Shown here: positions 7,111 to 55,973 of the stretch, piece after piece
Layout of the letters: each line of letters starts with the position of its first letter
How positions within the stretch are numbered: the first letter of the stretch is position 1
Source of the DNA: an uncultured Gammaproteobacteria bacterium
Lineage (GTDB): Bacteria > Patescibacteriota > Patescibacteriia > Magasanikbacterales > GWA2-37-8
Direction: 5' to 3'
NCBI GenBank assembly: GCA_964536725.1
Contig: CAZHYJ010000002.1
Coordinates: 27,219-91,218 of the forward strand
DNA: 64,000 nt
Translations under genes and position numbers: made by a program
Notes under the pieces: generated by a model
The model's database searches: none
Told to the model about the DNA's origin: nothing
Seen by the model: the letters and a program-made list of their open reading frames with translations, nothing else

Positions 7111-8223
7111 ATGTCCAAAGATTATTACAAAATATTAGGTCTAGAAAAAAACGCTTCAGCAGATGAGGTTAAAAAAGCTTTTAAAAAGATGGCGATGGAA
7201 CATCATCCTGATCGACCGGGTGGAGATGAAAAGAAGTTTAAAGAGATCAACGAAGCTTTTCAAGTCCTAAGCAATCAAGAGAAGCGTCAAAAATATGACC
7301 AGTTCGGCTCTGACTTTGAACAGCAGGGTGGTTTTGGTGGTGGTGCGAATTGGGAAGATTTTATGCGCGCGGCTCGTGGCCAAGGTGGTCAGGGTGGATA
7401 TGGTGGTGCCAATTTTGATTTTGGCGGAGTTGATCTCGGTGATATCTTTGGTGATCTTTTTGGTGGTGGCGGACGCGGTCGTGGCCAACGTCAACAGGCA
7501 CGTGGTCGCGACATTCAGGTTGATGTAGAGATGGATCTCAAAGAGGCAGTATATGGAGTGGAGCGTGAAATATCTTTACGTAAACAGTCAACCTGTGATG
7601 TCTGCAACGGCTCTGGCGGCGAGCCAGGCAGTAAAATGGACACTTGCGCCACTTGTCAGGGGCAAGGCCAGGTGGTGCAACACCAGCGGACGTTTTTGGG
7701 TACTATGCAAACAGTGGTTGCCTGTCCAGATTGCCAAGGGCGAGGACAAAAGACAAGTAAAAAATGTAAACACTGCGGTGGCGATGGAATCTTGTCCAAA
7801 CAAACAACAGTTAAAGTAAAAATACCAGCTGGTATTGATAACGGCGAATCAATTCGCTTAACGGGTTATGGTGAAGCTGCGCCACATGGTGGGGTTAGTG
7901 GCGACCTGTATGTTCGGGCTCATGTTCGTTCGCACAAAGGGCTGCAACGTGAGGGTTTCGATATTTATTCAGAAAAAGAAATCAGTTTTGTACAAGCAGT
8001 ATTGGGAGATAAAGTGGAAGTAGAAACTGTTGATGGGGTAGTAAATTTAATGATTCCAGAAGGTGTCGAATCTGGTCAGTTGATTAAAATTAAAGGTAAG
8101 GGTGTGACGCATTTGGGTCGTAGCACTCGTGGTGACCAACTGGTAAAAGTAAAAATTCGCGTACCAAGAAAACTGAGTCGCGATGCCAAGAAGAAACTGG
8201 AAGATCTGAGAGGGGAGTTGTAG
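7111..8223 (+). CDS. dnaJ: Chaperone DnaJ.
   Basis: J-domain with HPD, G/F-rich region, and four CxxCxGxG zinc-finger repeats. Confidence 0.95.
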   Translation: MSKDYYKILGLEKNASADEVKKAFKKMAMEHHPDRPGGDEKKFKEINEAFQVLSNQEKRQKYDQFGSDFEQQGGFGGGANWEDFMRAARGQGGQGGYGGANFDFGGVDLGDIFGDLFGGGGRGRGQRQQARGRDIQVDVEMDLKEAVYGVEREISLRKQSTCDVCNGSGGEPGSKMDTCATCQGQGQVVQHQRTFLGTMQTVVACPDCQGRGQKTSKKCKHCGGDGILSKQTTVKVKIPAGIDNGESIRLTGYGEAAPHGGVSGDLYVRAHVRSHKGLQREGFDIYSEKEISFVQAVLGDKVEVETVDGVVNLMIPEGVESGQLIKIKGKGVTHLGRSTRGDQLVKVKIRVPRKLSRDAKKKLEDLRGEL

Positions 8224-35720: not shown

Positions 35721-35816
35721 TTTTTAAGCTTTTAAAAATTTAGTTGAAGGGTCGATTGTTCATGTCGACCAAGCGCGCTCATCAAAAACCTGATGAGTTG
35801 GTTTTGGTTGCTGGGT

Positions 35817-36194
35817 CTAGCAGCTGCGCTTCTCCGTGCGCAACTCCTCTGCTGGCAAGATCCAGAAAAGTACCTGGGTGACCATCAGGATGGTGGAAAC
35901 GATGTTGACCGTCTCTTCGGTGAACCATCCCGTGTACCGAAGCAGCAGAACCAGAATCGAGCAGAGGATGCAGTGGATGAAGCAGATCTTCGCGAAGAGC
36001 TTGAGATGGTCTGCTTTGTAGAAGATCCACCGGAACTCGTTGGTCGGACCGACCTCCATCCATCCGCCAGTCTTGAGGCACTTCCGCACACTCAGAAAGT
36101 GTACGATGAAGGCTAAGAAGCCCACAATCATCCCCTTGACCACCCAGTCGATGTTGCCGAAAAAGTCCAACATACGCCCCTCCCTCCCAACCAT
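35817..36194 (-). CDS. GC-rich foreign-looking small 3-TM membrane protein (125 aa).
   Basis: About 57% GC against about 38% background. Three predicted TM helices. Upstream AT-rich spacer with a terminator. Confidence 0.45.
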   Translation of the reverse strand: MVGREGRMLDFFGNIDWVVKGMIVGFLAFIVHFLSVRKCLKTGGWMEVGPTNEFRWIFYKADHLKLFAKICFIHCILCSILVLLLRYTGWFTEETVNIVSTILMVTQVLFWILPAEELRTEKRSC

Positions 36195-36441
36195 TTTTTA
36201 GTTGAACAACCGTTTTTCTTATATCGTATTTCAACAAAAATGTCAATGTGCTGTATTGTTTTTTTGGTGATGGTTTGAAAAAACAAAATCCGACTTTAGT
36301 AAGTCGGATTTTTGTATGTTATTCTGTCCGTGCTGCCGCAGAATTCAAATTTTAAATTCTATGGCAGGCACACGGACAGAAGGTTTTTCACTTCTTTGTC
36401 GTGCACCCGAAGTGGCGGGTGTGAGGGGTAGTGGGGGGGGG

Positions 36442-36846
36442 CTATCGCTTGTCCGGCACCTCGATGGGCACCAGGGGGTAGTGCCGGTACCCTTCCGGCG
36501 TCCAATCCAGTGCTCCAAGCGAGAATGACGTCCCTTCAGCTGGAACCTCTCGGAGTATTCCACCTCCGAAGGGGTCCAGCTTCGTGGCCTTCTGAACAGA
36601 CTGGACGTTCACTTTGAACGTCCACCCCGCGCCATTGCGCTTGGTGCGCATGACGCGCTCGTCCAGGCCGACGACCTTCCATGTGTCGCCGCTTCTCGCC
36701 TTGGCGAAGCGGAGGTCCTGGAAGTCGATGGTAAAGGGCGGATACCTCCTGGACAGCCACCTCCCAACGATGTTTCCGACCACGCACATGACCAAGAAAG
36801 ACACCCAGGCCCAAACACCTTCCAACATCGCAAAACTCCTCTGCAA
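36442..36846 (-). CDS. GC-rich foreign-looking membrane-anchored protein (134 aa).
   Basis: GGAGG SD 8 nt upstream. N-terminal TM VWAWVSFLVMCVVGNIVG. Codon usage unlike the surrounding genes. Confidence 0.45.
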   Translation of the reverse strand: MQRSFAMLEGVWAWVSFLVMCVVGNIVGRWLSRRYPPFTIDFQDLRFAKARSGDTWKVVGLDERVMRTKRNGAGWTFKVNVQSVQKATKLDPFGGGILREVPAEGTSFSLGALDWTPEGYRHYPLVPIEVPDKR

Positions 36847-37107
36847 CGGTTTTCTTCATCGGCGCACGTTACGCCAACAAATACTCACCGACCACGGGCT
36901 TGGGGAAAATCGTATTCCCGGCCTCGTTTTTGTTTTCTGTTTAAGAAGTCAAAAATGAGGCTAGGAAAACGTAATGTAAAGAACAAATTAACGTTTAAGT
37001 ATAGTACAAAAAAGCGGTTTTGTCAATGTACTTTTGCACTTTTTCTGCATCCCCACTTTTTCCCTTGTTTTAGCCATTTTTTCTGTGGATAACTATGGTA
37101 AAAAATG

Positions 37108-38997: not shown

Positions 38998-39294
38998 ATG
39001 TCCACAGCAGAACTATTAAAAAAGATACAACCCACACTTACCGCCGGCAACGTCCAATTTGCCGCCCTTTTTGGCTCTCGTGCCAAGGGTTCTTTGCGTA
39101 CCAACAGTGACTACGATTTTTTAGTTCGGTTTGCACCGTCTTTTAAGTATACTGTTTTTGATTTATTGGATCTACGCGACAATTTAAGTCGTAATTTAAA
39201 AAAACCAGTCGACGTTATCACCGTTAATGGACTAAATCCTAAAATGAAATCTGAGGTTTACAAAACAATGAAAGTTGTATATGGAAACAGGTAA
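38998..39294 (+). CDS. Minimal nucleotidyltransferase (MntA-type antitoxin).
   Basis: GSRAKGSLRTNSDYDFLV = GSxxxG...SDxD nucleotidyltransferase signature. Confidence 0.7.
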   Translation: MSTAELLKKIQPTLTAGNVQFAALFGSRAKGSLRTNSDYDFLVRFAPSFKYTVFDLLDLRDNLSRNLKKPVDVITVNGLNPKMKSEVYKTMKVVYGNR

Positions 39295-39634
39295 GCGTGA
39301 TTATTTATATTTATCACATATTTTAGACGCCATCGGTGATGTGAATAAATTTTTGCGTGGAATTGAATATGCGGATTTTGCTCACAGTGATCTTTTACAA
39401 AGTGCAGTGATGCGTAAACTTGAGATTATGGGCGAGGCTACCAAGCGATTGAGCTTAGATTTTCGCAAAACACATGCAGATATCCCTTGGAAGAAAATTG
39501 CCGGCATGCGCGACGTCCTAATTCATGATTATTTCGGTGTGGATGCAAAAGCGGTTTGGAATACTGTAAAGGAGGATTTGTCGGATTTAAAGAAGAAAAT
39601 TACGTTGATTACCAAAATGAATCCAATTATTTAA
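39281..39634 (+). CDS. HepT-like HEPN-domain toxin (DUF86).
   Basis: Rx4HxY motif (MRDVLIHDY). The 14-nt overlap with the upstream MNT gene is the typical MntA-HepT operon layout. Confidence 0.7.
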   Translation: METGKRDYLYLSHILDAIGDVNKFLRGIEYADFAHSDLLQSAVMRKLEIMGEATKRLSLDFRKTHADIPWKKIAGMRDVLIHDYFGVDAKAVWNTVKEDLSDLKKKITLITKMNPII

Positions 39635-46594: not shown

Positions 46595-46900
46595 ATGTTA
46601 GCTGTTATTGCTACCGGTGGAAAACAATATTTGATTAAAACCGGCGAAGAAATTAAAATCGAAAAACTACTTGCCAAAGAGGGTGAGACAGTAAAATTTG
46701 AAGAAATTTTACTTACTGCCAATGATGACGGTTCAAACGTCAAGCTTGGTAAACCGTTTGTTGAAGGCGTGAGCATCACCGCAACGGTGGTAAAGCAAGG
46801 CAAAGCTAGAACTGTGCGCGTGGAGAAATTCAAACGCAAAGTCCGTTACCACAAGGTGTATGGTCACCGCCAACCTTTCACTGCAGTAAAGATTGCCTAA
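46595..46900 (+). CDS. rplU: 50S ribosomal protein L21.
   Basis: MLAVIATGGKQYLIKTGEEIKIEKL. Promoter CTTGACT-17-TATATT upstream. Confidence 0.9.
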   Translation: MLAVIATGGKQYLIKTGEEIKIEKLLAKEGETVKFEEILLTANDDGSNVKLGKPFVEGVSITATVVKQGKARTVRVEKFKRKVRYHKVYGHRQPFTAVKIA

Positions 46901-46904
46901 AAGA

Positions 46905-46945
46905 AATTTTCAAAATCATCCGCCAACAAGTGGGTGATTTTTTGT
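46905..46945 (+). terminator. Terminator after rplU, AATCATCCGCC-aacaa-GTGGGTGATTTTTT.
   Basis: Hairpin plus T-run. Confidence 0.55.
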
Positions 46946-47014
46946 TTTAAAATATTGTTTTTGGGTTGGTGGGGTGGTATAATAAAAGCCAGCTTAAGAC
47001 ATAAGATTTCATAT

Positions 47015-48568
47015 ATGAATAGCGAGAGAGGGCACTCTTTCTTGCCGGTAGAAAAAATTAAAAAGGAGTCTGTGGGTGATCGTTTTAATGGGGCAGTGGT
47101 AAAAGAGATGGAAAAAAAATTTGATGCTACCCATGATGTAACTGGTGATTATTTTACCCATGCTTTTCCTTTTGATAATTTGGCGAGTATTGTAAATGTA
47201 GGTGGGTTGGTTACACCAAATGAATTAAGGAGGAGAAAGGTTGGTTTTAAGAGGGGGAGCGATGCTTCTTTCGGGTCAACGATATTCTTTTCTAAAAATG
47301 AAATTCAGGGTTACAGTATTTCACAGATGGGAGATAAAAAAGATAAGGTTATTTCTGCTGCGATTCTCGTTCCAACACAAGAGTTTCATAGGGTAAGTAG
47401 AACAAGAAATGATTTGGTTGGATCGCATGTGTTTAAAGAAGGCGACTATCGAGACCCAAATGCGAGGTCTGTTTCTAATGAATTTCCTTTATATACAGAA
47501 CATGCATATATGGTTAGTGATCGAGCAGTTCGTGCAGCTGAAGAAATATCACAAAAATTACTAAAACAAAAAATTGACAGAAGTAAGAATCTGTTAGATA
47601 AAATAATCGCACAAGCAGAGGCAGATTTTAAGGATGGAGTTGAAAGTTTGTCTGCCATCTCTGTGAACGAACGAGACAGTGTCATGAAGGAACTGGGTAG
47701 AGGTTATCATTTTGACGAAAACCCTTTTGTTTATTCGGTAGAACGAGGGATAAAAGAATTAGAAAATTTGATTCAAACAAAAGAAAAAGCTTTTAAAGAT
47801 TTAGAAATTGACTGTGGTTTTCAAAAAGAGACTATTCGGTTTTTTTTAGATCAAAAAAAGCCGAGTTTCTTACAAAATGTTGTTGAAAATTTGGGGTTTA
47901 AAACTAGGCGTCAATCAGATGTGGTAGGATTAGAAAAACAAGCGAAGGAGCAAGATGGAATTTTAGTTTCTGCCCAGGAAGAAATTGCCAAATTGAGAGA
48001 GCAGTTGTTAGAAAGTAAACAAAGGTATGAGCAGTTAAAGGTTGCTTACAAATTATTGATGGAAAAAAGAAGGGCGATAGGTGTAGCTCAACGTGCTTAT
48101 GATAATAGCGTCAATGAGTTTAAAAAATATTATAGGACAGAACCGGAGTATGATATGTTCGGTATAAACGCACTTGGTGAAGGTTTTTTAAAGGTGCTAA
48201 GTCAAATGAGAAAAGCTTATGGGGTTCCAGAGCTTGAAAGGGTAGCTAAAGTAAATATTGATCATTCTATAATATTAGTTGAAATTGAAGGGGCAGAGGA
48301 TGCTGTAAAAGCAACAGAAAATAAACCGGGTTTACGTTCTAGAATTATTTTATTTGATGGAAAAAAACTCTCAAAAGAAATAGAGGATAGAGTTTCGAAG
48401 GATGACCACAGTTTAGGAGATAGTGTGGATGTTTTAAATATATTAACCAAAACAGAGGATGGCTTTGCAATATTAAAAGCAGCACAGTCTGGGTCAGTAG
48501 GAGGCCAAAAGTTAAATGGCCTTATTTCGTTAGCAGATTATTTAGTTGATCAAAAAAAATTTAATTAA
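47015..48568 (+). CDS. Large hypothetical protein (518 aa) with an N-terminal globular region and a central coiled coil.
   Basis: Long ORF with its own TATAAT promoter. No motif recognised. Start set at the internal ATG (the track ORF begins at 46934). Confidence 0.5.
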   Translation: MNSERGHSFLPVEKIKKESVGDRFNGAVVKEMEKKFDATHDVTGDYFTHAFPFDNLASIVNVGGLVTPNELRRRKVGFKRGSDASFGSTIFFSKNEIQGYSISQMGDKKDKVISAAILVPTQEFHRVSRTRNDLVGSHVFKEGDYRDPNARSVSNEFPLYTEHAYMVSDRAVRAAEEISQKLLKQKIDRSKNLLDKIIAQAEADFKDGVESLSAISVNERDSVMKELGRGYHFDENPFVYSVERGIKELENLIQTKEKAFKDLEIDCGFQKETIRFFLDQKKPSFLQNVVENLGFKTRRQSDVVGLEKQAKEQDGILVSAQEEIAKLREQLLESKQRYEQLKVAYKLLMEKRRAIGVAQRAYDNSVNEFKKYYRTEPEYDMFGINALGEGFLKVLSQMRKAYGVPELERVAKVNIDHSIILVEIEGAEDAVKATENKPGLRSRIILFDGKKLSKEIEDRVSKDDHSLGDSVDVLNILTKTEDGFAILKAAQSGSVGGQKLNGLISLADYLVDQKKFN

Positions 48569-48582
48569 ATATTTTAAAAATT

Positions 48583-48978
48583 ATGACCACCTACACTTGG
48601 TATCAACAGCTCATTAAACCATCCTGGGCTCCACCATCATATTTGTTTGGTCCGGTTTGGTCGGTGTTGTATGTTCTGATCGCGATTTCTTTTGGCAAAG
48701 TGTTTCTGATGTTTTTTGGCAAACAAATTAAGTGGTATATACTTTTACCGTTTGTATTGAATATCATTTTTAACCTAATTTTTACCCCCATCCAATTTGG
48801 GTTGCAGAATAACTATCTAGCGGCTTTAGATATTTTATTGGTACTTGGTACCTTGATCTGGGCGATGGTGGCAATTTTTCCTTTTATGCGTTGGGTGACT
48901 TACCTGCAGATTCCATATTTGTTGTGGGTTAGTTTTGCGACGGTTTTGCAATTGACGATTACGGTGTTGAATAGATAA
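48583..48978 (+). CDS. TspO/MBR family tryptophan-rich sensory protein.
   Basis: Five-TM protein with WYQQLIKPSWAPPSYLFGPVWSVLY. Confidence 0.75.
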   Translation: MTTYTWYQQLIKPSWAPPSYLFGPVWSVLYVLIAISFGKVFLMFFGKQIKWYILLPFVLNIIFNLIFTPIQFGLQNNYLAALDILLVLGTLIWAMVAIFPFMRWVTYLQIPYLLWVSFATVLQLTITVLNR

Positions 48979-48981
48979 AAG

Positions 48982-49554
48982 ATGAAGAGCTTGATTAAGA
49001 AGAAAATATTATTAGCCGGTAACGAAGTCGAATACCTATTACAAAAAAGTATTCGGGCTGGGCGCATGCGTCTGTCGGTTGGATTCGGAGCGGTTGTTAC
49101 TGTGACAATTCCGTGGTATTTCAGTGAACGTAAAGTTGAGATGTTTTTGCGCGACAAGGCGGGGTGGATTTTAAAGAAGATGGCGCATTTTAAAAAGATT
49201 GGTAACGTAGTTAGAATTGGTGGAGGAAGAAAAGACTATTTAAAACACAAAGAACAGGCGAGACAGTTGGTGTTGCGAACGATTGAAGATATAAACAAAG
49301 ACGGACAGTTTGTGTTTAATCGCATTGCCATCCGAAACAACAAGTCGCGTTGGGGTAGTTGCTCAAAAAAAGGAAATTTAAATTTTAATTATCGGATTAT
49401 TTTTCTACCTGAACATTTGGTAAAGTATCTAGTGGTGCATGAACTGTCTCACTTAAAAGAATTTAATCATTCACATCGTTTCTGGAATTTGGTGGGGGAG
49501 TATGTGCCGGATTACAAAAAAGTAACGAAAGAATTGAAGAAAAATATATTTTAA
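48982..49554 (+). CDS. YgjP-like metal-dependent hydrolase (DUF45/M48 family, HExxH).
   Basis: RWGSCSKKGNLNFNYRIIFLPEHLVKYLVVHELSHL. Confidence 0.75.
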   Translation: MKSLIKKKILLAGNEVEYLLQKSIRAGRMRLSVGFGAVVTVTIPWYFSERKVEMFLRDKAGWILKKMAHFKKIGNVVRIGGGRKDYLKHKEQARQLVLRTIEDINKDGQFVFNRIAIRNNKSRWGSCSKKGNLNFNYRIIFLPEHLVKYLVVHELSHLKEFNHSHRFWNLVGEYVPDYKKVTKELKKNIF

Positions 49555-49573
49555 TATTTAATAGTGTAAATAT

Positions 49574-49873
49574 ATGAAAGGTTTTTTAAATTTTATTCGT
49601 GAACAAGGAGTGGTTGGACTGGCAGTCGGTTTTTTATTAGGCGGAGCAGTATCTCGAACAGTGACTTCTCTGGTGGACAATGTAATTAATCCATTAGTCG
49701 GTTTGTTACTGGGCAAGGTAAGTTTGGTAGATCGAGCTGTTGTTTTTGGTAATGCTTCTTTAAAGTATGGTGCATTCATTTCTTCGATCATTGATTTTGT
49801 TATTATCGCTGCAGTTATCTACTTTGGTATCAAATTGATAGGGATAGATCGGTTGGATAAAAAGAAGGAATAA
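49574..49873 (+). CDS. mscL: Large-conductance mechanosensitive channel MscL.
   Basis: FIREQGVVGLAVGFLLGGAV TM1, TM2, and a charged C-terminus. Confidence 0.85.
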   Translation: MKGFLNFIREQGVVGLAVGFLLGGAVSRTVTSLVDNVINPLVGLLLGKVSLVDRAVVFGNASLKYGAFISSIIDFVIIAAVIYFGIKLIGIDRLDKKKE

Positions 49874-49921
49874 TTTTTTAAATTATTTTAAAATCACTCA
49901 ATTTGTTTGGGTGATTTTTTG

Positions 49922-49950
49922 TTGACAGATAATATGTGATGTGGTGTAAT
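49922..49950 (+). promoter_or_regulatory. Promoter TTGACA-17-TGTAAT in front of the GC-rich ORF.
   Basis: Read from the sequence. Confidence 0.4.
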
Positions 49951-49982
49951 ATTTCAGGCTTCTTTCTTCGAGGAGGGAGAAA

Positions 49983-50243
49983 GTGTCTAGTAAAAAGTCT
50001 CCGTTGAGGCTGGAGCTGGAGGAGAGCCTTACCTTAGAAAAGTTGAAGTTCGTGTTCGAAGAGGGTAGGGGTGTATTCCTTCATGACTGGGAAGGGCTGA
50101 TCAAGAGCCATCCTCGCAAGAGGGGCGTGGTCGCGAGGTATCTCGCGACGGTCGTTGGCAGTCATGTCCAGATGCCCGTCGAGGTGACGGGTTGGACTAG
50201 TGCCGGCGAAGGACGATATCAGCTGCACTACAAGCTGATCTGA
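49983..50243 (+). CDS. GC-rich foreign-looking small protein (86 aa), GTG start.
   Basis: Strong SD GAGGAGGGAGAAA, about 55% GC. Followed by the hairpin CCCCCGAA...TTCGGGGG. Confidence 0.45.
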   Translation: MSSKKSPLRLELEESLTLEKLKFVFEEGRGVFLHDWEGLIKSHPRKRGVVARYLATVVGSHVQMPVEVTGWTSAGEGRYQLHYKLI

Positions 50244-50349
50244 AGGAGGGTGGCGAGTTGGAAACTCGCAATTACCCCCGAACGCGCGAACCTGCTCTTC
50301 GGGGGTTCGCTTTATATAAACCCAAGAGACGATAAAACAACAATTTTAA

Positions 50350-50385
50350 AACCGCCCCAGTTGGAGCGGTTTTGTTTTTTTACTG
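50350..50385. terminator. Bidirectional terminator, AAACCGC-cccagttgga-GCGGTTT.
   Basis: Hairpin flanked by A-run and T-run, downstream of recR (minus strand). Confidence 0.5.
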
Positions 50386-51308: not shown

Positions 51309-52808
51309 TTAGTATTCTATTGATGCCCCAGCAGAATCATCCGGCGGTCGGGGAGCGTGATTTTGTTGACCTGGTCGGATAAAAGCCGACTTTGGTTTCA
51401 AGGCTGGGGGTGCAGCGGGTGCAGCTGGTTTGTTAACGTAGGAGTTGTCCAAATTTCTAAATGACGCAAACTGTTCGTTAAAAACACATTTTACTATACC
51501 AGTCGGACCATTTCTGTGTTTGGCGATATGAATTTCGGCAATATTTTTTTCATCGGGTGAAACATCCTCCGGACGATAGTTGCGATCGGCGGATTTTCGG
51601 TAGATGAATAATACCACATCTGCGTCCTGTTCGATAGACCCAGATTCACGCAAGTGTGAGAGTTTTGGAATAGCCGGCGTGCTTTGTTCTACCACACGTG
51701 ACAACTGAGACAGGGCCAAAACAGGAATACTTAATTCGCGGGCAATACCTTTTAAACCGCGGGTAATTTCTGCCACTTCTTGCACACGATTGTCGCCTCC
51801 GCCTTTTCCTTTTGATTCCATCAACTGCAAGTAGTCGATAACGATCAAGCCCAAACCATGCTCAGCCTGCAAACGGCGAGCTTTTGTTCTGATCTGCATG
51901 ATGTTCACGTTGGGGGAGTCATCAATAAAAATCGGGGCTTCAGAAAGCGAACCAATCGCATGGCCAATGCGCGGAAAATCATCAGAATCGGGACTGTCGG
52001 AAAGTTTGCCGGTACGCAAACGCCAAAGATCAATGTTGGCTTCTGAACACAACATACGATCTACCAACTGTTCCTTGCTCATTTCAAGAGAAAACAAACC
52101 CACTGGTATTCTCAATTTGGAGCCGATGTGTCTGATCATATCCATCGCCAGAGCAGTTTTACCCACACTCGGACGAGCAGCCAAGATAATCAAATCGGAT
52201 TTTTGTAAACCAGCCAGAAGATTGTCTAAACCGGTGAGACCAGTTGGCACACCGCGTAGCTTGCCTTTGTTTTTGTGTAGTTCGTCAATGCGGTCAAAGG
52301 CATCAGCCAAAACGCCGCGGATGGGAGTAAAAGTTTGTTTAAAATATATTTGTGAAACACCAAACAAATGTTGCTGGGCTTCGTCCAAAACATCTTCAAT
52401 TTCATTACTTTCATTGTAACCTAAACGGATAATCTCATGTGAAGCATTCAAAAGACGGCGACGAATGGCTTTGCGATGAACGATGCGGGCGTAGTTTTCA
52501 ACATTTGAAGCGGTTGGTACGGTGTTGGCCAAGGTGGCTAAGTAGCTGCGCCCACCAACACTATCTAAAGAATTTTTTTCTGTTAAACGATTGCTCAAAG
52601 TCAATAAGTCAATGGAATCGTTGCGCGAATACATTTCCAAAATCGTTTCGTAAATTCTTCCGTGACTTTCTTTATAAAAATCATCCGCGCGAGTGGTGTC
52701 GGCAATTTTTAATAGGGCCTCTTTATCCAAAAGAATTGAACCCAAAAGAGACATTTCTGCTTCCAGACTTTGGGGTGGTATTTTTTCGATGTCGTTGTTG
52801 TCGGACAT
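51309..52808 (-). CDS. dnaB: Replicative DNA helicase DnaB.
   Basis: Walker A LIILAARPSVGKTALAM and RecA-like C-terminal domain, full length. Confidence 0.9.
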   Translation of the reverse strand: MSDNNDIEKIPPQSLEAEMSLLGSILLDKEALLKIADTTRADDFYKESHGRIYETILEMYSRNDSIDLLTLSNRLTEKNSLDSVGGRSYLATLANTVPTASNVENYARIVHRKAIRRRLLNASHEIIRLGYNESNEIEDVLDEAQQHLFGVSQIYFKQTFTPIRGVLADAFDRIDELHKNKGKLRGVPTGLTGLDNLLAGLQKSDLIILAARPSVGKTALAMDMIRHIGSKLRIPVGLFSLEMSKEQLVDRMLCSEANIDLWRLRTGKLSDSPDSDDFPRIGHAIGSLSEAPIFIDDSPNVNIMQIRTKARRLQAEHGLGLIVIDYLQLMESKGKGGGDNRVQEVAEITRGLKGIARELSIPVLALSQLSRVVEQSTPAIPKLSHLRESGSIEQDADVVLFIYRKSADRNYRPEDVSPDEKNIAEIHIAKHRNGPTGIVKCVFNEQFASFRNLDNSYVNKPAAPAAPPALKPKSAFIRPGQQNHAPRPPDDSAGASIEY

Positions 52809-52925
52809 AGTTTTGTTTGCCCGTATATGTTAACTCAAAGAGGGTGTTTTAAGCAAGGCGGGGGTGGGGGTGAATTGTGATTAAAATGTGTGTATATAAA
52901 GTTGTAGCCGCGACGGGTATCGCGG

Positions 52926-53738
52926 CTACTTGTTTCCACGGGACTTGAAACGGGGGGTGATGTCGCTGATTAAGCGTCTGATGAGGTCGGCGGCAATGGG
53001 GAGGATCGGGGTGTGGTGCTTTTCGGTCGTTTGGTGCTTCGCCTTTTTTTCCGCGTACGATTTCCAGGAAAGCGGAATCGAAGCGAGGAAGGTGAACACA
53101 CCGACAGTGCCGATCACGCTGGTAGGCTCGTTGATGGAGCACATCATCAGCATGATTCCAGCGGACTGCAAGATCATCTTGATCTTCCCGGAGAGGGTAG
53201 ATGCAAGTGCTCGTGTGTCTGGGTGGTTTTGCACCACCTCGTAGGCGAAGTCGGCCAGGCGAATCTTCGTCAGCTTGACCTCCAGATAGGCGAAGCCGAA
53301 GAAATCTGTCGCAAGGACGACCCAGTACCACCACTCGACGGGGATGCTGTCTGCTACCACAAGGGCAATGATCACGACGGCGAGGCTGAATTGCGAGAGC
53401 AGTGTCAGAATCTGCGCTTTGTCAGCCAGCGGGTCTGAGACCTTGCCCAGTGCGGTGCAGTTCCGTCGGTAGCGTGCCAGCGCTCCGTCCAGAGCGTCTA
53501 GCAGCAGGGTGAACAAGAGTGCCACCACTCCGAGCCAGATCAGCACGTTGCTGTTGAGCACTGCCCCCAGAAGAAACAGCACGAAGACAAAAGGCGTCAT
53601 CGGCAGCACTCTGAAGACAGTGATCATGTTCGGCGTAATCCACACTGGAATGATCTTGCAGATCGGTTCCAGCAAGCGGTCGAAAATCCCAGCCGGGAAT
53701 TCCGATGTGCCGTTGTAAACGGCATTTTTCAAGTCCAT
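52926..53738 (-). CDS. CDP-alcohol phosphatidyltransferase family protein (PgsA-like phospholipid headgroup transferase). GC-rich and foreign-looking.
   Basis: Perfect DALDGALARYRRNCTALGKVSDPLAD = D-G-x2-A-R-x8-G-x3-D-x3-D signature. GGAGGG SD. CTG/GGC-biased codon usage. Confidence 0.75.
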   Translation of the reverse strand: MDLKNAVYNGTSEFPAGIFDRLLEPICKIIPVWITPNMITVFRVLPMTPFVFVLFLLGAVLNSNVLIWLGVVALLFTLLLDALDGALARYRRNCTALGKVSDPLADKAQILTLLSQFSLAVVIIALVVADSIPVEWWYWVVLATDFFGFAYLEVKLTKIRLADFAYEVVQNHPDTRALASTLSGKIKMILQSAGIMLMMCSINEPTSVIGTVGVFTFLASIPLSWKSYAEKKAKHQTTEKHHTPILPIAADLIRRLISDITPRFKSRGNK

Positions 53739-53816
53739 GGTTTTCCCTCCAATCAACTGATGGGAATAGTACAGGCGCTTTGCCTTTTTTGTCAACATTG
53801 AGTATAATCTATATGT

Positions 53817-55973
53817 ATGAATCAATGGAAACAATTGCTTAAACCGGTAGTTTTTTTGTTAGTGTTTTCGATTTTAATATTTCTTTCTTGGTCAAAATAT
53901 TTACCACAATTTTTTGGTATCTTTTTTGGGTTAATATTATTCTTCCGTATTGCCTCCTGGTGGCGTCATTCTCTCGGAGAAATGTTTGATATTCCACTGC
54001 GTTCTTTCCGGGCTTGGGTTTTCTCTGTCTTTTGGACGTTAGTTAATATCGGCACGTTTGCTGGAGTTGCCCTGTTCTTTGGTCGGTTGGATGCGTTGAC
54101 TGGTTCACTCGGTCTATTCTTTAGTGGTCTAGTGGCGGTAATATTTAAAAAATATAATTTCACTCGTGAGTCACGAACTATTGAAGTAGATGTTAAGGAA
54201 GAACGACCGTTAGACAAAATTTTAGTTTTGGTTTATTTGGTGCTGTTTTTTATCGGTCTTAATATTTTGGTGCACGCCAAAACCGGTTTGGTTGTCTCAA
54301 CACCATGGCAAGTGATTCCGGAAAATTATTTAATAATATATTTTCTTGCCACCGCCGCACTTCTACGTATTCTTTTTTCTGAATTGTCTGCCAAAGCAAC
54401 TTTGGTGTTGATTGTTTTTCATACTTTTTTAACTGTCTCGTATTTAGCCTTTACTCATGAATTGTTTTATGGCGCTGACATCTGGCGTCATCTGGCAACC
54501 GAAAATGCCATTATTCAAAGTGGTGGCTGGCGTGATGCGGTGGTGACGGGTGTACAATCGGTATTTGATTTTGGTAAATTATCTTACGCCCAGTTTTTGT
54601 CACTCGGCGTTGTTCTCAATCAAGTATTTGGTTTGGATCTTATTTTCATCAACAAATGGTTACAACCAATACTGTGGGCGTTTGTATTTCCAGCTTTGAT
54701 GTTTTCTTTTGCTCGTGAAATGGGGGCAGACAAAAGAGGGGGATTGCTCGCCGCGATTTTTGGTCTTTTGCCTTTTGCTTTACAGGCGTCTGGGTCTTTT
54801 GCTCTGCCGGTAAATTTTGGCTTTTTGGTGTGGTTGTTTTTGGTTTGGTTGTTGTTAAAATTCATGCACGAGCGCTTGAAAATTCAGGCAATATTTTTAA
54901 TTACTTTTGGTGCGTTATTAATTTTTAGTTACTCTTTGTATTTTGTCCTTTTTTGGCTTTTGTGGTTTGTGTTAGAGATTGCACGAGCAACGGGTGAGTG
55001 GTCACGTTGGAAAAAAATATTAACGAGTCTTGGTTTGTTCTTGATTGTTGCCGTTTCTATACCAGCTATAGAGTTGATATTTAATTTTGGTCATTTGCCT
55101 CGAACTTGGGATTTGCTATCAGGATTAAAACAATTTTTTGGCAACTTGTCCGGTTGGTATTTGGCTTTTGGTCCACGGTCGCATGATATTGCTACCGGTA
55201 ATATTCTATTTAATCAAACACCGGCAATGGCCTTTGTTCCCAATTTTCTAACTGTCGATCGCTATTGGTTAATCGCCGCTGCATTAGTTTTTTGGCTTTC
55301 CAGTTTGTTTGGTTTGATAAACGGTTTAAGGAAAAAAGATTTTCGTCTCAACGGTTTGGCTCTACTGATCGTCGGTTTGTTCTTTGGATATTTTTTCAGT
55401 CGTTATCTAATGGTGGGCGACAATATTTTAGCACGTCGTTTAGAGGTGGTATTAGCATGTCTGTCGGTATTTTTCGGTGCCCGATTTTGGATGGGGGTGT
55501 TTCTTAAAAAGCAAGAATTTTTTGCGCGCTTCCGCTATGTGGGTTTGATAATGGTGGTGATATTTAGTGCGGGTGCAATTACGGCTTCATATTCACTCGG
55601 ACCAGATACCAAGACTGTGAGTAGTGACGAATATCAGGCAGCGCAATATATTTGGCAACAAGTTTCGTCGGATAACAAATTTTGTGTTTTAGGTGATACT
55701 TATCCGCTCCTAGCGCTAGAAGCAGAGTCAGCCAAGAAAGTAGTGGGCGGCGGTTTTCCAATTGACACCAACTTTGGTCAGCCAGAGCGGGTGCAATTGT
55801 TTAAAGATTTAACAAATCGGTCGGTAGAAAATGTTTTGACTGACGCAAAGATATTGATAGACACAAAGAGCTGCTGGTTGGTATTTTCAGGTGATAACGG
55901 GAAAGTTAATTTGCGTTATGATAAAAAGAATATTCAAAAAGTTTTTGGTGATGTAATAATATTTAAAAATTAA
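53817..55973 (+). CDS. Large polytopic membrane protein (718 aa), possibly a GT-C-type glycosyltransferase.
   Basis: More than 14 predicted TMs and loop regions. No motif confidently recognised. Confidence 0.4.
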   Translation: MNQWKQLLKPVVFLLVFSILIFLSWSKYLPQFFGIFFGLILFFRIASWWRHSLGEMFDIPLRSFRAWVFSVFWTLVNIGTFAGVALFFGRLDALTGSLGLFFSGLVAVIFKKYNFTRESRTIEVDVKEERPLDKILVLVYLVLFFIGLNILVHAKTGLVVSTPWQVIPENYLIIYFLATAALLRILFSELSAKATLVLIVFHTFLTVSYLAFTHELFYGADIWRHLATENAIIQSGGWRDAVVTGVQSVFDFGKLSYAQFLSLGVVLNQVFGLDLIFINKWLQPILWAFVFPALMFSFAREMGADKRGGLLAAIFGLLPFALQASGSFALPVNFGFLVWLFLVWLLLKFMHERLKIQAIFLITFGALLIFSYSLYFVLFWLLWFVLEIARATGEWSRWKKILTSLGLFLIVAVSIPAIELIFNFGHLPRTWDLLSGLKQFFGNLSGWYLAFGPRSHDIATGNILFNQTPAMAFVPNFLTVDRYWLIAAALVFWLSSLFGLINGLRKKDFRLNGLALLIVGLFFGYFFSRYLMVGDNILARRLEVVLACLSVFFGARFWMGVFLKKQEFFARFRYVGLIMVVIFSAGAITASYSLGPDTKTVSSDEYQAAQYIWQQVSSDNKFCVLGDTYPLLALEAESAKKVVGGGFPIDTNFGQPERVQLFKDLTNRSVENVLTDAKILIDTKSCWLVFSGDNGKVNLRYDKKNIQKVFGDVIIFKN

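What the first reader, a model, noticed from the sequence alone, without database searches (positions are those of the whole stretch)
52850..53760. GC-rich island 3: horizontally acquired CDP-alcohol phosphatidyltransferase (PgsA-like) between dnaB and a large membrane protein
The gene at 52926-53738 (minus strand) has the perfect D-G-x2-A-R-x8-G-x3-D-x3-D signature (DALDGALARYRRNCTALGKVSDPLAD). It has about 55% GC, GGAGGG SD and CTG-rich codons in a genome using mainly TTA/TTG/AAA. Its own hairpin terminator (GTAGCCGCGA-cgggta-TCGCGGCTAC) sits at the 3' end. CPR bacteria generally lack complete phospholipid biosynthesis, so a laterally acquired headgroup transferase is functionally meaningful. 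It could remodel scavenged lipids.
Basis: partly seen in the sequence, partly recalled or inferred. Interest (0 to 1): 0.6.

Follow-up and report, generated by a model that had tools for sequence, protein, structure and literature searches.

The report
Swapped GC-rich lipid-enzyme gene in CPR
A membrane-lipid head-group enzyme gene sits in a slot conserved across a group of ultra-small (CPR) bacteria; here it was swapped for a very different version, and every version is oddly G+C-rich, the most extreme ones with predicted tightly folded mRNA, so high G+C alone does not mark foreign DNA.

Summary
Window 52926-53738 (-) encodes a 270-aa CDP-alcohol phosphatidyltransferase with an intact catalytic motif. 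GC3 is 0.74 against about 0.40 for the window's other genes.

- **Not a new capability.** The gene fills a conserved slot (GT-C-fold glycosyltransferase <-> CDP-OH transferase -> dnaB-ybaB-recR) found in at least 10 Magasanikbacteria-like CPR lineages.
- **An exchange did happen, like for like.** A close relative (L081; flanking proteins 82-87% identical, flanks about 80% nt) carries a 30%-identical allele in the same slot. Similarity collapses exactly between the -35 promoter element and the terminator hairpin.
- **The donor was probably another CPR.** The window allele shares a subfamily-specific insertion motif, and its six best hits among 1.8 billion representatives are slot alleles or their class.
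- **High G+C is not a donor fingerprint.** In all 10 loci this gene has the highest GC3, including a vertically inherited pair.
- **The most GC-rich alleles have unusually stable predicted mRNA folds** (z -4.3 to -11 against synonymous shuffles; 32 controls span -3.4 to +2.9). A natural variant preserves the fold.

Substrate is unresolved: PgsA is the nearest characterised enzyme, but the gene scores below every NCBIfam cutoff.

The parts
52926..53738 (-). CDS, 270 aa: CDP-alcohol phosphatidyltransferase of a CPR-specific subfamily. GC3 0.74, with an unusually stable predicted mRNA fold.
   Evidence: PF01066 at 70.1 bits. Motif D81..D106. AF2 model pLDDT 79.6; Foldseek top hits are AF2299, S. 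aureus PgsA and PIP synthases, prob 1.00. Population variants differ at 17 synonymous and 9 nonsynonymous codons. mRNA MFE z is -4.5 to -6.8 against synonymous shuffles and -8.9 against dinucleotide shuffles.
53745..53750 (-). Shine-Dalgarno GGAGGG, 6 nt before the ATG
   Evidence: Direct reading. GGAGG-type SD in all orthologous loci.
53779..53795 (-). Conserved -35 element TTGACAAAAAAGGCAAA. It is the last conserved sequence before the swapped segment.
   Evidence: Promoter scan gives TTGACA-18-TACTAT. TTGACA-N5-6-GCAAA is present in 9 of 10 lineages. The 32 nt around it are 100% identical to L081, then similarity is lost abruptly.
53766..53771 (-). Candidate -10 hexamer TACTAT, inside the swapped segment
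   Evidence: Consensus match only.
52930..53778 (-). Segment exchanged relative to the close relative L081: -10 region, 5' UTR and CDS
   Evidence: Pairwise alignment shows 72-88% nt identity in MEM and dnaB flanks and 27-57% inside. dN is 0.87 for the CDS against 0.11 and 0.07 for the flanking genes.
52904..52929 (-). Terminator-type hairpin overlapping the stop codon. Homologous hairpins occur in relatives, with compensatory stem changes.
   Evidence: Window GCCGCGA/UCGCGGC, L081 GCCUCGA/UCGAGGC, L079 GCCCCGA/UCGGGGC, each with loop (U/C)ACCCG.
52865..52891 (-). Conserved dnaB leader (ACACATTTTAATCACAATTCACCCCCA), where similarity to L081 resumes
53817..55973 (+). Divergently transcribed 718-aa polytopic membrane protein with a GT-C glycosyltransferase fold. 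It is the constant partner of the slot.
   Evidence: No Pfam or PDB sequence hit. AF2 model pLDDT 85, pTM 0.89. Foldseek matches STT3/PglB/AglB, AftA and ArnT, prob 1.00, E 2e-6 to 1e-3. UniRef names a homologue 'Glycosyltransferase RgtA/B/C/D-like'. Adjacent to the CDP-OH gene in all loci.
51309..52808 (-). dnaB, the downstream flank of the slot
   Evidence: Pfam DnaB and DnaB_C. 72-87% aa identity to the relatives' dnaB.

Best explanation
**What it is (shown).** The gene encodes a six-helix membrane enzyme of the CDP-alcohol phosphatidyltransferase superfamily with an intact catalytic motif.

**Where it sits (shown).** It occupies a fixed chromosomal slot. It is transcribed divergently from a GT-C-fold glycosyltransferase and lies upstream of dnaB-ybaB-recR. 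The slot is conserved in at least ten lineages of Magasanikbacteria-like CPR bacteria, so the function is native to the group.

**What happened here (exchange shown; mechanism and direction inferred).** The resident allele was replaced by a very divergent allele of the same CPR-specific subfamily. The most likely route is homologous recombination in the conserved flanks. The exchanged piece runs from just after the -35 element to the terminator hairpin.

**Why it is GC-rich (pattern shown; cause inferred).** The high G+C is a property of the gene at this slot, not a donor fingerprint. All alleles, including a vertically inherited pair, carry excess G/C at synonymous sites. The most extreme alleles (window, L081, L079) fold in silico far more stably than synonymous-codon shuffles, and a natural variant of the window allele keeps that stability. 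I infer that third-position G/C is maintained by selection on mRNA structure (stability, or throttled translation of a membrane enzyme). Recombination-associated GC bias may add to it.

**What it does (inferred).** It performs metal-dependent transfer of a phosphatidyl or other substituted phosphate group from a CDP-activated donor to a hydroxyl acceptor. The acceptor is probably phosphorylated (G3P-like), giving an anionic head group. The product may serve the envelope-glycoconjugate pathway of the neighbouring glycosyltransferase. Such surface pathways are classic targets of allele exchange.
For: **Family and fold.**

**Nearest solved relative.** With the subfamily profile it is S. aureus PgsA, E 5e-18, against 1.7e-9 for PIP synthase.

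**Conserved synteny.**

**Allele exchange, window against L081.**
- MEM is 82% and DnaB 87% aa identical; the CDP-OH protein is 30%.
- The nucleotide identity profile has sharp edges at 53778 and about 52930.
- dN is 0.87 against 0.11 and 0.07 for the flanking genes. The vertically related pair L008/L010 gives 0.19 against 0.16 and 0.07.
- No protein 36-90% identical exists among 5.8 billion clusters, although MEM has relatives at 95, 81, 77, 70, 62 and 60%.

**CPR origin of the allele.**
- The top six phmmer hits among 1.8 billion representatives are slot alleles or their class.
- It shares the insertion motif [YW]LExxLxxxRxxD[FY], with E153, R160 and D163 invariant.

**GC3 excess in 10 of 10 loci**.

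| Locus | Gene GC3 | Other genes GC3 |
|---|---|---|
| window | 0.74 | 0.40 |
| L081 | 0.74 | 0.26-0.31 |
| L079 | 0.68 | 0.275 |
| L008 | 0.64 | 0.49 |
| L009 | 0.52 | 0.375 |
| L010 | 0.55 | 0.42 |
| L012 | 0.54 | 0.43 |
| L161 | 0.48 | 0.356 |
| L166 | 0.58 | 0.53 |
| L169 | 0.66 | 0.55 |

The excess persists in L008/L010 despite dS of 1.3-1.8.

**Predicted mRNA structure.**
- z is -4.5 to -6.8 for the window, -5.3 for L005, -4.3 for L081 and -10 to -11 for L079.
- 19 window genes and 13 other CDP-OH genes span -3.4 to +2.9.
- Dinucleotide shuffles give -8.9 and -12.8.
- Local 30-codon shuffles still give -4.0, -8.5 and -3.5.
- The sense strand is more extreme than the antisense in the strongest cases.
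- Variant L005 keeps an MFE of -307.6, against -294.6 +/- 5.3 for the same synonymous changes placed at random; 0 of 120 simulations match it.

**Selection on the protein.** 17 synonymous against 9 nonsynonymous codon differences.

**GT-C partner.**
Against: - Only one close relative (L081, 3.4 kb) with DNA in hand shows the exchange.
- The claim that the P0021-class allele is ancestral rests partly on P0021 and MEM homologue P0194 sharing a contig length of 4877 bp. That was not verified.
- A crude NJ tree did not place the window protein inside the subfamily clade.
- It scores equally against a subfamily HMM (141.6 bits) and an HMM of other PgsA-like proteins (144.3 bits). A donor outside the sampled subfamily is therefore not excluded.
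- No donor was found.
- All RNA-structure evidence is in silico, and much of the excess stability comes from long-range pairs.
- Six of the ten alleles have z-scores (-1.3 to -2.6) inside the control range. Structure therefore cannot explain the GC3 excess everywhere.
- GC-biased conversion was not tested.
- Substrate assignment is weak. Every NCBIfam equivalog model scores below its cutoff. One of the five PgsA phosphate ligands (R110) is replaced by Leu in a by-eye alignment.
Confidence: 0.6

Rival explanations
1. A recent lateral acquisition from a GC-rich non-CPR donor gave this CPR a new head-group transferase. The GC content and codon usage are the donor's, not yet ameliorated.
For: GC3 is 0.74 against 0.40, with a codon pattern typical of 55-60% GC organisms. 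The allele is confined to a population at least 96% identical. The exchange relative to L081 is real. The window protein is equidistant from the subfamily HMM and the general HMM.
Against: A homologue already occupied the same slot in all relatives. The best hits are all slot alleles or their class, and they share an insertion motif absent from short PgsA-type proteins. GC1 and GC2 are near native values. Alleles in nine other lineages are also GC-rich, including a vertically inherited pair. A donor signature does not explain the structure z-scores or structure-preserving variation. No integrase, tRNA or direct repeats lie at the edges.
Confidence: 0.12
2. No transfer at all. The window allele is the vertical ortholog that diverged in place through a burst of accelerated, GC-biased evolution.
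For: Position, promoter element and terminator hairpin are retained. Identity matrices for CDP-OH, DnaB, MEM and HIT are roughly congruent among distant lineages. The gene evolves fast everywhere. GC1 and GC2 are also raised in L079 and L081, as expected from a biased substitution process.
Against: It needs dN of about 0.87 where the flanking genes have 0.07-0.11 and dS is about 1.2-2.3. That means near-neutral or positive evolution across a whole enzyme that now shows roughly a 2:1 synonymous to nonsynonymous codon ratio. The 5' UTR also loses all similarity at a sharp edge. No intermediates (36-90% identity) exist, although the neighbouring gene has a graded series of relatives.
Confidence: 0.15
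3. The GC3 excess is caused mainly by GC-biased gene conversion at a recombination hot spot, not by selection on RNA. The structure signal is a by-product or a prediction artefact.
For: The slot demonstrably undergoes allele exchange. Recombining bacterial genes tend to have higher GC3 (PMC4450053, title and abstract seen; not read further). Most alleles have only modest z-scores. L011, a GC-rich short-type gene in a Falkowbacteria MAG, has GC3 0.70 with z about 0.
Against: The adjacent MEM and dnaB genes show no GC3 rise although they would be the crossover regions. Conversion bias does not predict z of -4 to -11, or that natural synonymous variants preserve the fold.
Confidence: 0.2
4. The island is an assembly chimera or contaminant.
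For: None beyond the composition step.
Against: Six independent assemblies from four run series reproduce both junctions, with strain-level variation. The flanking regulatory elements are continuous with relatives.
Confidence: 0.01

Closest known systems
PgsA (CDP-diacylglycerol--glycerol-3-phosphate 3-phosphatidyltransferase), e.g. S. aureus PgsA, PDB 7DRJ/7DRK
   Same: Same superfamily motif and six-helix fold. It is the best solved-structure match with the subfamily profile (E 5e-18) and gives Foldseek TM 0.67-0.68 normalised to the target. TIGR00560 is the best NCBIfam model. Lys after D4 (K107), R160 and the GKxK lysine (K187) correspond to PGP-phosphate ligands K83, R118 and K137 (PMC8640168; my by-eye alignment).
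   Different: It scores 51.5 bits against the 109.1 cutoff. The single sequence is no closer to PgsA than to PIP synthases (E 4.6e-4 against 1.4e-4). It has an insertion of about 25 residues between TM4 and TM5, a long N-terminal helix and a 40-residue C-terminal extension. R110 is replaced by L152 and Y181 by K231. Activity is untested, and no cdsA was seen in the window.
Phosphatidylinositol-phosphate synthases (mycobacterial PgsA1; PDB 6H53, 6WM5) working with GT-C glycosyltransferases in PIM/LM/LAM synthesis
   Same: Same fold. Like AF2299, it has an N-terminal juxtamembrane helix. The genomic pairing with a GT-C enzyme (fold match includes AftA) resembles a lipid-anchor plus GT-C logic.
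   Different: NF045883 scores 28.3 bits against a cutoff of 170. There is no evidence for inositol-phosphate synthesis genes. The functional link to the GT-C neighbour is inferred from conserved adjacency only.
Xenologous (orthologous) gene replacement at surface-structure loci, e.g. O-antigen or capsule clusters exchanged through conserved flanks and atypical in GC (own knowledge)
   Same: A conserved slot, sharp similarity breaks at the gene ends, very divergent alleles in close relatives, atypical composition, and an envelope-related neighbour.
   Different: It is a single gene rather than a cluster. The GC deviation is upward in an AT-rich genome. The deviation also persists in vertically inherited alleles and is coupled to predicted RNA structure.
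GC-rich islands marking structured RNA genes in AT-rich genomes (rRNA, tRNA, ncRNA screens; own knowledge)
   Same: A local GC rise coincides with strongly negative folding z-scores.
   Different: Here the structured RNA is a protein-coding mRNA under purifying selection on the protein. There is no Rfam match.

Membership tests
CDP-alcohol phosphatidyltransferase superfamily (PF01066) | Motif D1xxD2G1xxAR...G2xxxD3xxxD4 | tested here: met
   D81, D84, G85, A88, R89, G98, D102, D106.
CDP-alcohol phosphatidyltransferase superfamily (PF01066) | Profile score above Pfam gathering threshold | tested here: met
   70.1 bits against 22, E 3.6e-19.
CDP-alcohol phosphatidyltransferase superfamily (PF01066) | Polytopic all-helical fold like the solved members | tested here: met
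   AF2 pLDDT 79.6, pTM 0.73. Foldseek top 21 hits are all AF2299, PgsA or PIPS with prob 1.00.
PgsA equivalog (TIGR00560 / NF008090) | Score at or above the curated cutoff | tested here: not met
   51.5 bits against 109.1, and 19.2 against 304. Slot-subfamily members score 50-66 bits and short CPR-type proteins 78-94.
PgsA equivalog (TIGR00560 / NF008090) | Ligands of the G3P 3'-phosphate (SaPgsA K83, R110, R118, K137, Y181; PMC8640168) | tested here: inconclusive
   K107, R160 and K187 are present and invariant in the subfamily. R110 corresponds to L152 and Y181 to K231. The correspondence is by eye, anchored on E153/R160 and S227.
PgsA equivalog (TIGR00560 / NF008090) | CDP-diacylglycerol supply (cdsA) in the same genome; PGP synthase activity | not testable with these tools
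   Only 64 kb is available. No cdsA, plsC or plsY is among its genes.
PIP synthase / archaetidylinositol-P synthase / ClsA-type cardiolipin synthase / PssA | Score at or above the curated NCBIfam cutoff | tested here: not met
   28.3 against 170, 40.3 against 180, 32.8 against 240, and 17.2 against 107.
Horizontally acquired genomic island | Atypical composition relative to the host genome | tested here: met
   GC3 0.74 against 0.40; codon-adaptation z -5.8. The same is true of vertically inherited alleles, so the feature is not diagnostic here.
Horizontally acquired genomic island | Different or absent in close relatives, with sharp boundaries | tested here: met
   L081 has flanks about 80% nt identical and a 30% aa allele. 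The breaks lie at 53778 and about 52930.
Horizontally acquired genomic island | Mobility signatures (integrase, tRNA target, flanking direct repeats, phage carriage) | tested here: not met
   There are no flanking direct repeats and no tRNA or other Rfam hit in the window. The neighbours are housekeeping genes. There is no relative in viral contigs.
Horizontally acquired genomic island | Identifiable donor lineage | tested here: not met
   The best non-self hits are 33-36% identical and are slot alleles or their class from CPR.
GT-C glycosyltransferases (for the 718-aa neighbour) | GT-C membrane fold; conserved acidic residue in the first external loop | tested here: met
   Foldseek matches STT3, PglB, AglB, AftA and ArnT with prob 1.00. 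The G219-A220-D221-x-W223-R224-H225 motif is invariant. The catalytic role of D221 is inferred.

The most novel reading that the evidence does not exclude
A CPR lineage keeps one envelope-lipid enzyme gene as an exchangeable cassette whose coding RNA is itself under selection to be GC-rich and hyper-structured. The mRNA fold (long-lived, translation-throttled or dual-function RNA), rather than ancestry, would explain why a single gene stands out as a GC island in ten genomes. Alleles of this structured gene would be swapped between lineages through conserved promoter and terminator flanks, possibly under host- or phage-driven diversifying selection on the cell surface.
Probability: 0.3. Interest if true: 0.75.

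Novelty: new variant of a known kind. Interest (0 to 1): 0.55.

Why it matters
**Caution for island-based HGT calls.** A GC island in an AT-rich CPR genome is here a conserved property of one native gene slot. Composition alone would mis-date the event and mis-assign the donor.

**Lipid-handling machinery in CPR.** CPR bacteria are thought unable to make their own membrane lipids (PMC7242380, abstract). A lineage-wide CDP-alcohol transferase paired with a GT-C glycosyltransferase, fast-evolving and occasionally swapped, points to a dedicated head-group or glycolipid step. That step could be tested biochemically and may relate to host attachment.

**A natural test case for synonymous-site selection.** If the predicted mRNA structure is real, the gene shows selection on coding-RNA structure strong enough to override genome-wide AT pressure.

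Tried and rejected
- **Overlapping or dual coding as the cause of high GC.** No alternative frame is consistently open across nine orthologues, and lengths match synonymous-shuffle nulls.
- **Known RNA family embedded in the gene.** There is no Rfam hit at E <= 1 in 52600-54000 and none at gathering threshold in the whole window.
- **Phage carriage.** No relative in IMG/VR.
- **General sequestration of the ribosome-binding region.** The window allele is predicted 0.80 paired against 0.53 +/- 0.11 in controls. Other alleles give 0.51-0.71, so this is not a shared feature.
- **Highly-expressed-gene codon bias.** dnaK and the ribosomal-protein genes for L9 and L21 have ordinary GC3 of 0.38-0.40.
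- **Phylogeny.** No ML software was available. An NJ tree left the window protein on a long branch outside the subfamily clade, and the HMM comparison was ambiguous.
- **Collection scans.** They returned mostly Chloroflexota-type proteins and did not return the window's own genome.
- **Profile search.** The profile search with the search for homologous proteins was capped at 8000 candidates and missed most subfamily members.
- **Technical.** One folding script timed out.
- **L008/L010 consensus fold.** It gave 14 of 125 pairs with double changes, but with two sequences and no control I draw nothing from it.
- **Organism name.** The window's genome could not be named. Relatives are labelled Candidatus Magasanikbacteria.
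Full report
**1. The observation**

The minus-strand ORF 52926..53738 encodes 270 aa. Its ATG is preceded by GGAGGG (53750-53745) and by a sigma-70-like TTGACA-18-TACTAT (53795-53766).

The protein carries the complete D81xxD84G85xxA88R89-x8-G98xxxD102xxxD106 signature. It matches Pfam PF01066 at 70.1 bits against a cutoff of 22.

The composition anomaly is real and coincides with the gene.
- GC is 0.55. GC1/GC2/GC3 are 0.52/0.38/0.74, against means of 0.49/0.35/0.40 for 67 other ORFs.
- A codon-adaptation index built on 60 window genes gives z = -5.8.
- The shift is almost wholly synonymous. TTC, GAC, AAC, TAC, CAC and TGC make up 83-100% of their families, against 17-39% in the background. 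CTG is 46% of Leu against 9%.
- The 10-11-bp hairpin at 52904-52929 overlaps the stop codon.

The same junctions occur in six independent assemblies from four run series, so misassembly is excluded. A strain variant (L005) differs at 17 synonymous and 9 nonsynonymous codons, so the protein is under purifying selection.

**2. What the protein is**

All NCBIfam equivalog models score below their cutoffs. The best is pgsA TIGR00560, at 51.5 bits against 109.1.

With a profile of the subfamily, the nearest solved structure is S. aureus PgsA (E 5e-18), ahead of PIP synthase (1.7e-9). With the single sequence, PgsA and PIP synthases are equidistant.

An AlphaFold model (pLDDT 79.6) has the expected helical bundle. 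Foldseek returns only AF2299, PgsA and PIP synthases at prob 1.00.

Relative to short PgsA-type proteins, the protein has three additions:
- a long N-terminal helix;
- an insertion of about 25 residues extending TM4;
- a 40-residue C-terminal extension.

Three of the five residues that hold the PGP 3'-phosphate in SaPgsA (PMC8640168) have counterparts: K107, R160 and K187. R110 corresponds to L152 and Y181 to K231. This mapping is by eye. The acceptor is plausibly a phosphorylated alcohol, but it is unresolved.

No cdsA, plsC or plsY lies in the window. Its other genes are chaperones, cell-wall and glycosylation genes, pyrG and similar.

**3. The slot is native to a CPR lineage**

An exhaustive search of 1.8 billion representatives found only 10 proteins with E < 1e-10. 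The best non-self hits are 35% identical.

The top hits form a subfamily of 200-235 aa. They share the insertion motif [YW]LExxLxxxRxxD[FY] and a C-terminal P..S...K.

Locus retrieval shows the subfamily gene always sits in the same place: mnmA - zinc-finger protein - TrwB-like ATPase - (radical SAM, NUDIX) - HIT - ~700-aa membrane protein <-> CDP-OH transferase -> dnaB - ybaB - recR.
- This holds for four MAGs. Three are labelled Candidatus Magasanikbacteria. The fourth is labelled Gammaproteobacteria, is syntenic with them and is probably mislabelled.
- It also holds for five further metagenomic lineages.
- DnaB is 72-87% identical to the window's across these loci.

The ~700-aa neighbour has no Pfam or PDB sequence match. 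Its model (pLDDT 85, pTM 0.89) matches the GT-C glycosyltransferases STT3/PglB/AglB, AftA and ArnT. UniRef calls a homologue RgtA/B/C/D-like.

**4. The allele in this window was exchanged**

L081 is a close relative. Its MEM fragment is 82% and its DnaB 87% identical to the window's, yet its CDP-OH protein is only 30% identical.

In a nucleotide alignment, identity is 72-88% across MEM and dnaB. It falls to 27-57% between window 53778 and about 52930.

The left edge lies immediately after a 32-nt stretch that is 100% identical and contains the conserved TTGACAAAAAAGGCAAA. The right edge is the terminator hairpin, which is retained with a compensatory G:C to U:A change. Similarity resumes fully in the dnaB leader.

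| Pair | dN, CDP-OH | dN, MEM | dN, DnaB |
|---|---|---|---|
| window / L081 | 0.87 | 0.11 | 0.07 |
| L008 / L010 (vertically related) | 0.19 | 0.16 | 0.07 |

Values are Nei-Gojobori estimates.

The word-indexed search of 5.8 billion clusters found no CDP-OH protein between 36% and 90% identity to the window's. MEM, by contrast, has relatives at 95, 81, 77, 70, 62 and 60%.

L081's allele is 58% identical to P0021. P0021's 4877-bp contig probably also carries MEM homologue P0194, which is 70% identical to the window's. This is inferred from the equal contig length only.

I conclude that the P0021 class is ancestral in this clade and that the window allele replaced it. An in-situ burst of divergence cannot be strictly excluded.

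**5. High G+C belongs to the slot, not to a donor**

In all ten loci the CDP-OH gene has the highest GC3 of every gene present.

| Locus | Gene GC3 | Other genes GC3 |
|---|---|---|
| window | 0.74 | 0.40 |
| L081 | 0.74 | 0.26-0.31 |
| L079 | 0.68 | 0.275 |
| L008 | 0.64 | 0.49 |
| L009 | 0.52 | 0.375 |
| L010 | 0.55 | 0.42 |
| L012 | 0.54 | 0.43 |
| L161 | 0.48 | 0.356 |
| L166 | 0.58 | 0.53 |
| L169 | 0.66 | 0.55 |

L008 and L010 have inherited their allele vertically (72% aa identity, in line with MEM at 74%). Their synonymous divergence is saturated (dS 1.3-1.8), yet both keep an excess of 0.13-0.15. An un-ameliorated donor signature cannot explain that. Some continuing force is needed.

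**6. Predicted RNA structure**

I compared the minimum free energy of each CDS with shuffles that permute synonymous codons. These keep the protein and the codon usage.

| Allele | z (synonymous shuffles) |
|---|---|
| window | -4.5 to -6.8 |
| L005 (window variant) | -5.3 |
| L081 | -4.3 |
| L079 | -10 to -11 |
| L010 | -3.7 |
| L008 | -2.6 |
| L169 | -2.2 |
| L009, L161, L012, L166 | -1.3 to -1.7 |

Sources.

- **Controls.** Nineteen window genes and thirteen CDP-OH genes from other genomes, several natively GC-rich, span -3.4 to +2.9.
- **Other nulls.** Dinucleotide shuffles of the transcripts give -8.9 (window) and -12.8 (L079). Shuffling only within 30-codon blocks changes about 11% of bases and still gives -4.0, -8.5 and -3.5.
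- **Strand.** The sense strand is more extreme than the antisense in the strongest cases, which points to RNA rather than DNA.
- **Natural variation.** Placing L005's 17 synonymous changes at random matched sites gives -294.6 +/- 5.3 kcal/mol. The real variant has -307.6, and 0 of 120 simulations reach it.
- **Location of the signal.** Much of the excess comes from long-range pairs. Only mRNA positions 76-300 are locally structured.

The strong signal is confined to the three or four most GC-rich alleles, which sit in the most AT-rich genomes. The milder alleles fall within the control range. Structure is therefore at best part of the explanation. All of this is prediction.

**7. Ideas tested and dropped**

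- No conserved overlapping ORF.
- No Rfam family.
- No phage copy.
- No consistent masking of the ribosome-binding region.
- No codon bias of the highly-expressed-gene kind.
- No flanking repeats or mobility genes.
- GC-biased conversion at a recombination-prone slot (compare PMC4450053, seen) remains possible. It does not explain why the flanking genes are unaffected, or why there is a structure signal.

**8. Verdict**

The gene, motif, GC anomaly, SD and hairpin are confirmed.

'Horizontally acquired' is right only in the narrow sense of a like-for-like allele replacement inside a slot that is ancestral to a CPR lineage. The donor was most likely another CPR.

The GC-richness is a conserved, unexplained property of this gene. 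It is associated, in its extreme forms, with predicted hyper-structured mRNA.

The enzyme is a divergent PgsA-related CDP-alcohol transferase of unknown substrate. It is constantly paired with a GT-C glycosyltransferase, which suggests an envelope lipid or glycolipid role. That role is inferred.

The family and the mechanism of exchange are known kinds. The combination of a conserved slot, swapped alleles, lineage-wide synonymous GC excess and a structured coding RNA is an unusual variant worth follow-up.

Noticed in passing
window 35760-36210, 36380-36900 and 49960-50320: Three more GC-rich islands (GC 0.50-0.70) have the same foreign-like codon usage (adaptation index 0.45-0.49 against 0.715). 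Each holds a small ORF with no Pfam hit: 35817-36194 (-), 36442-36846 (-) and 49983-50243 (+). Predicted RNA folds give z = -1.6, -3.7 and -5.0 against dinucleotide shuffles. A C-rich run follows the stop of the 36442 ORF, as it does for the CDP-OH gene.
   Followed up: partly
window 53817-55973 (+): The unannotated 718-aa membrane protein is predicted with high confidence to have a GT-C glycosyltransferase fold (STT3/PglB/AftA/ArnT-like). It has an invariant GAD-x-WRH motif at residues 219-225. It evolves about as fast as the CDP-OH gene.
   Followed up: yes
window 53779-53795 and equivalent positions in L008, L009, L010, L012, L079, L081, L161: The intergenic element TTGACA-N5-6-GCAAA is conserved across lineages whose other intergenic sequence is unalignable. 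It may be a shared promoter or operator for the divergent gene pair.
   Followed up: partly
window 52865-52891 (dnaB leader); L012, L079 and L166 equivalents: The conserved leader upstream of dnaB contains DnaA-box-like nonamers: TTAATCACA here, TTATTCACA in L012, TTAGCCACA in L079 and TTACCCACA in L166.
   Followed up: no
window 46900-50380: A 517-aa protein, TspO, YgjP, MscL and a GC island lie between the L21 gene and recR. In the Magasanikbacteria loci L008, L009, L010 and L012, recR and the L21 gene are adjacent. This block is therefore an insertion, or a deletion in the relatives.
   Followed up: no
whole window: No tRNA or any other Rfam family reaches its gathering score in 64 kb.
   Followed up: no
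L009 (CAYOXC010000001.1): A 464-kb contig labelled 'uncultured Gammaproteobacteria' has GC 0.386 and is fully syntenic with the Magasanikbacteria loci. It is probably a mislabelled CPR MAG.
   Followed up: partly
L011:5974-6561 (Candidatus Falkowbacteria MAG): A short-type CDP-OH transferase in a different context is also a GC island (GC3 0.70 against 0.47) but has no structure signal (z about 0). GC-rich CDP-OH genes may be more widespread in CPR.
   Followed up: partly
L161:16376-16651: A bAvd/23S_rRNA_IVP-family gene, the accessory protein of diversity-generating retroelements, lies about 8 kb from the slot in one Magasanikbacteria lineage.
   Followed up: no
window 39281-39634 (+): HepT-like ribonuclease toxin gene (PF01934, E 6e-28).
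   Followed up: no
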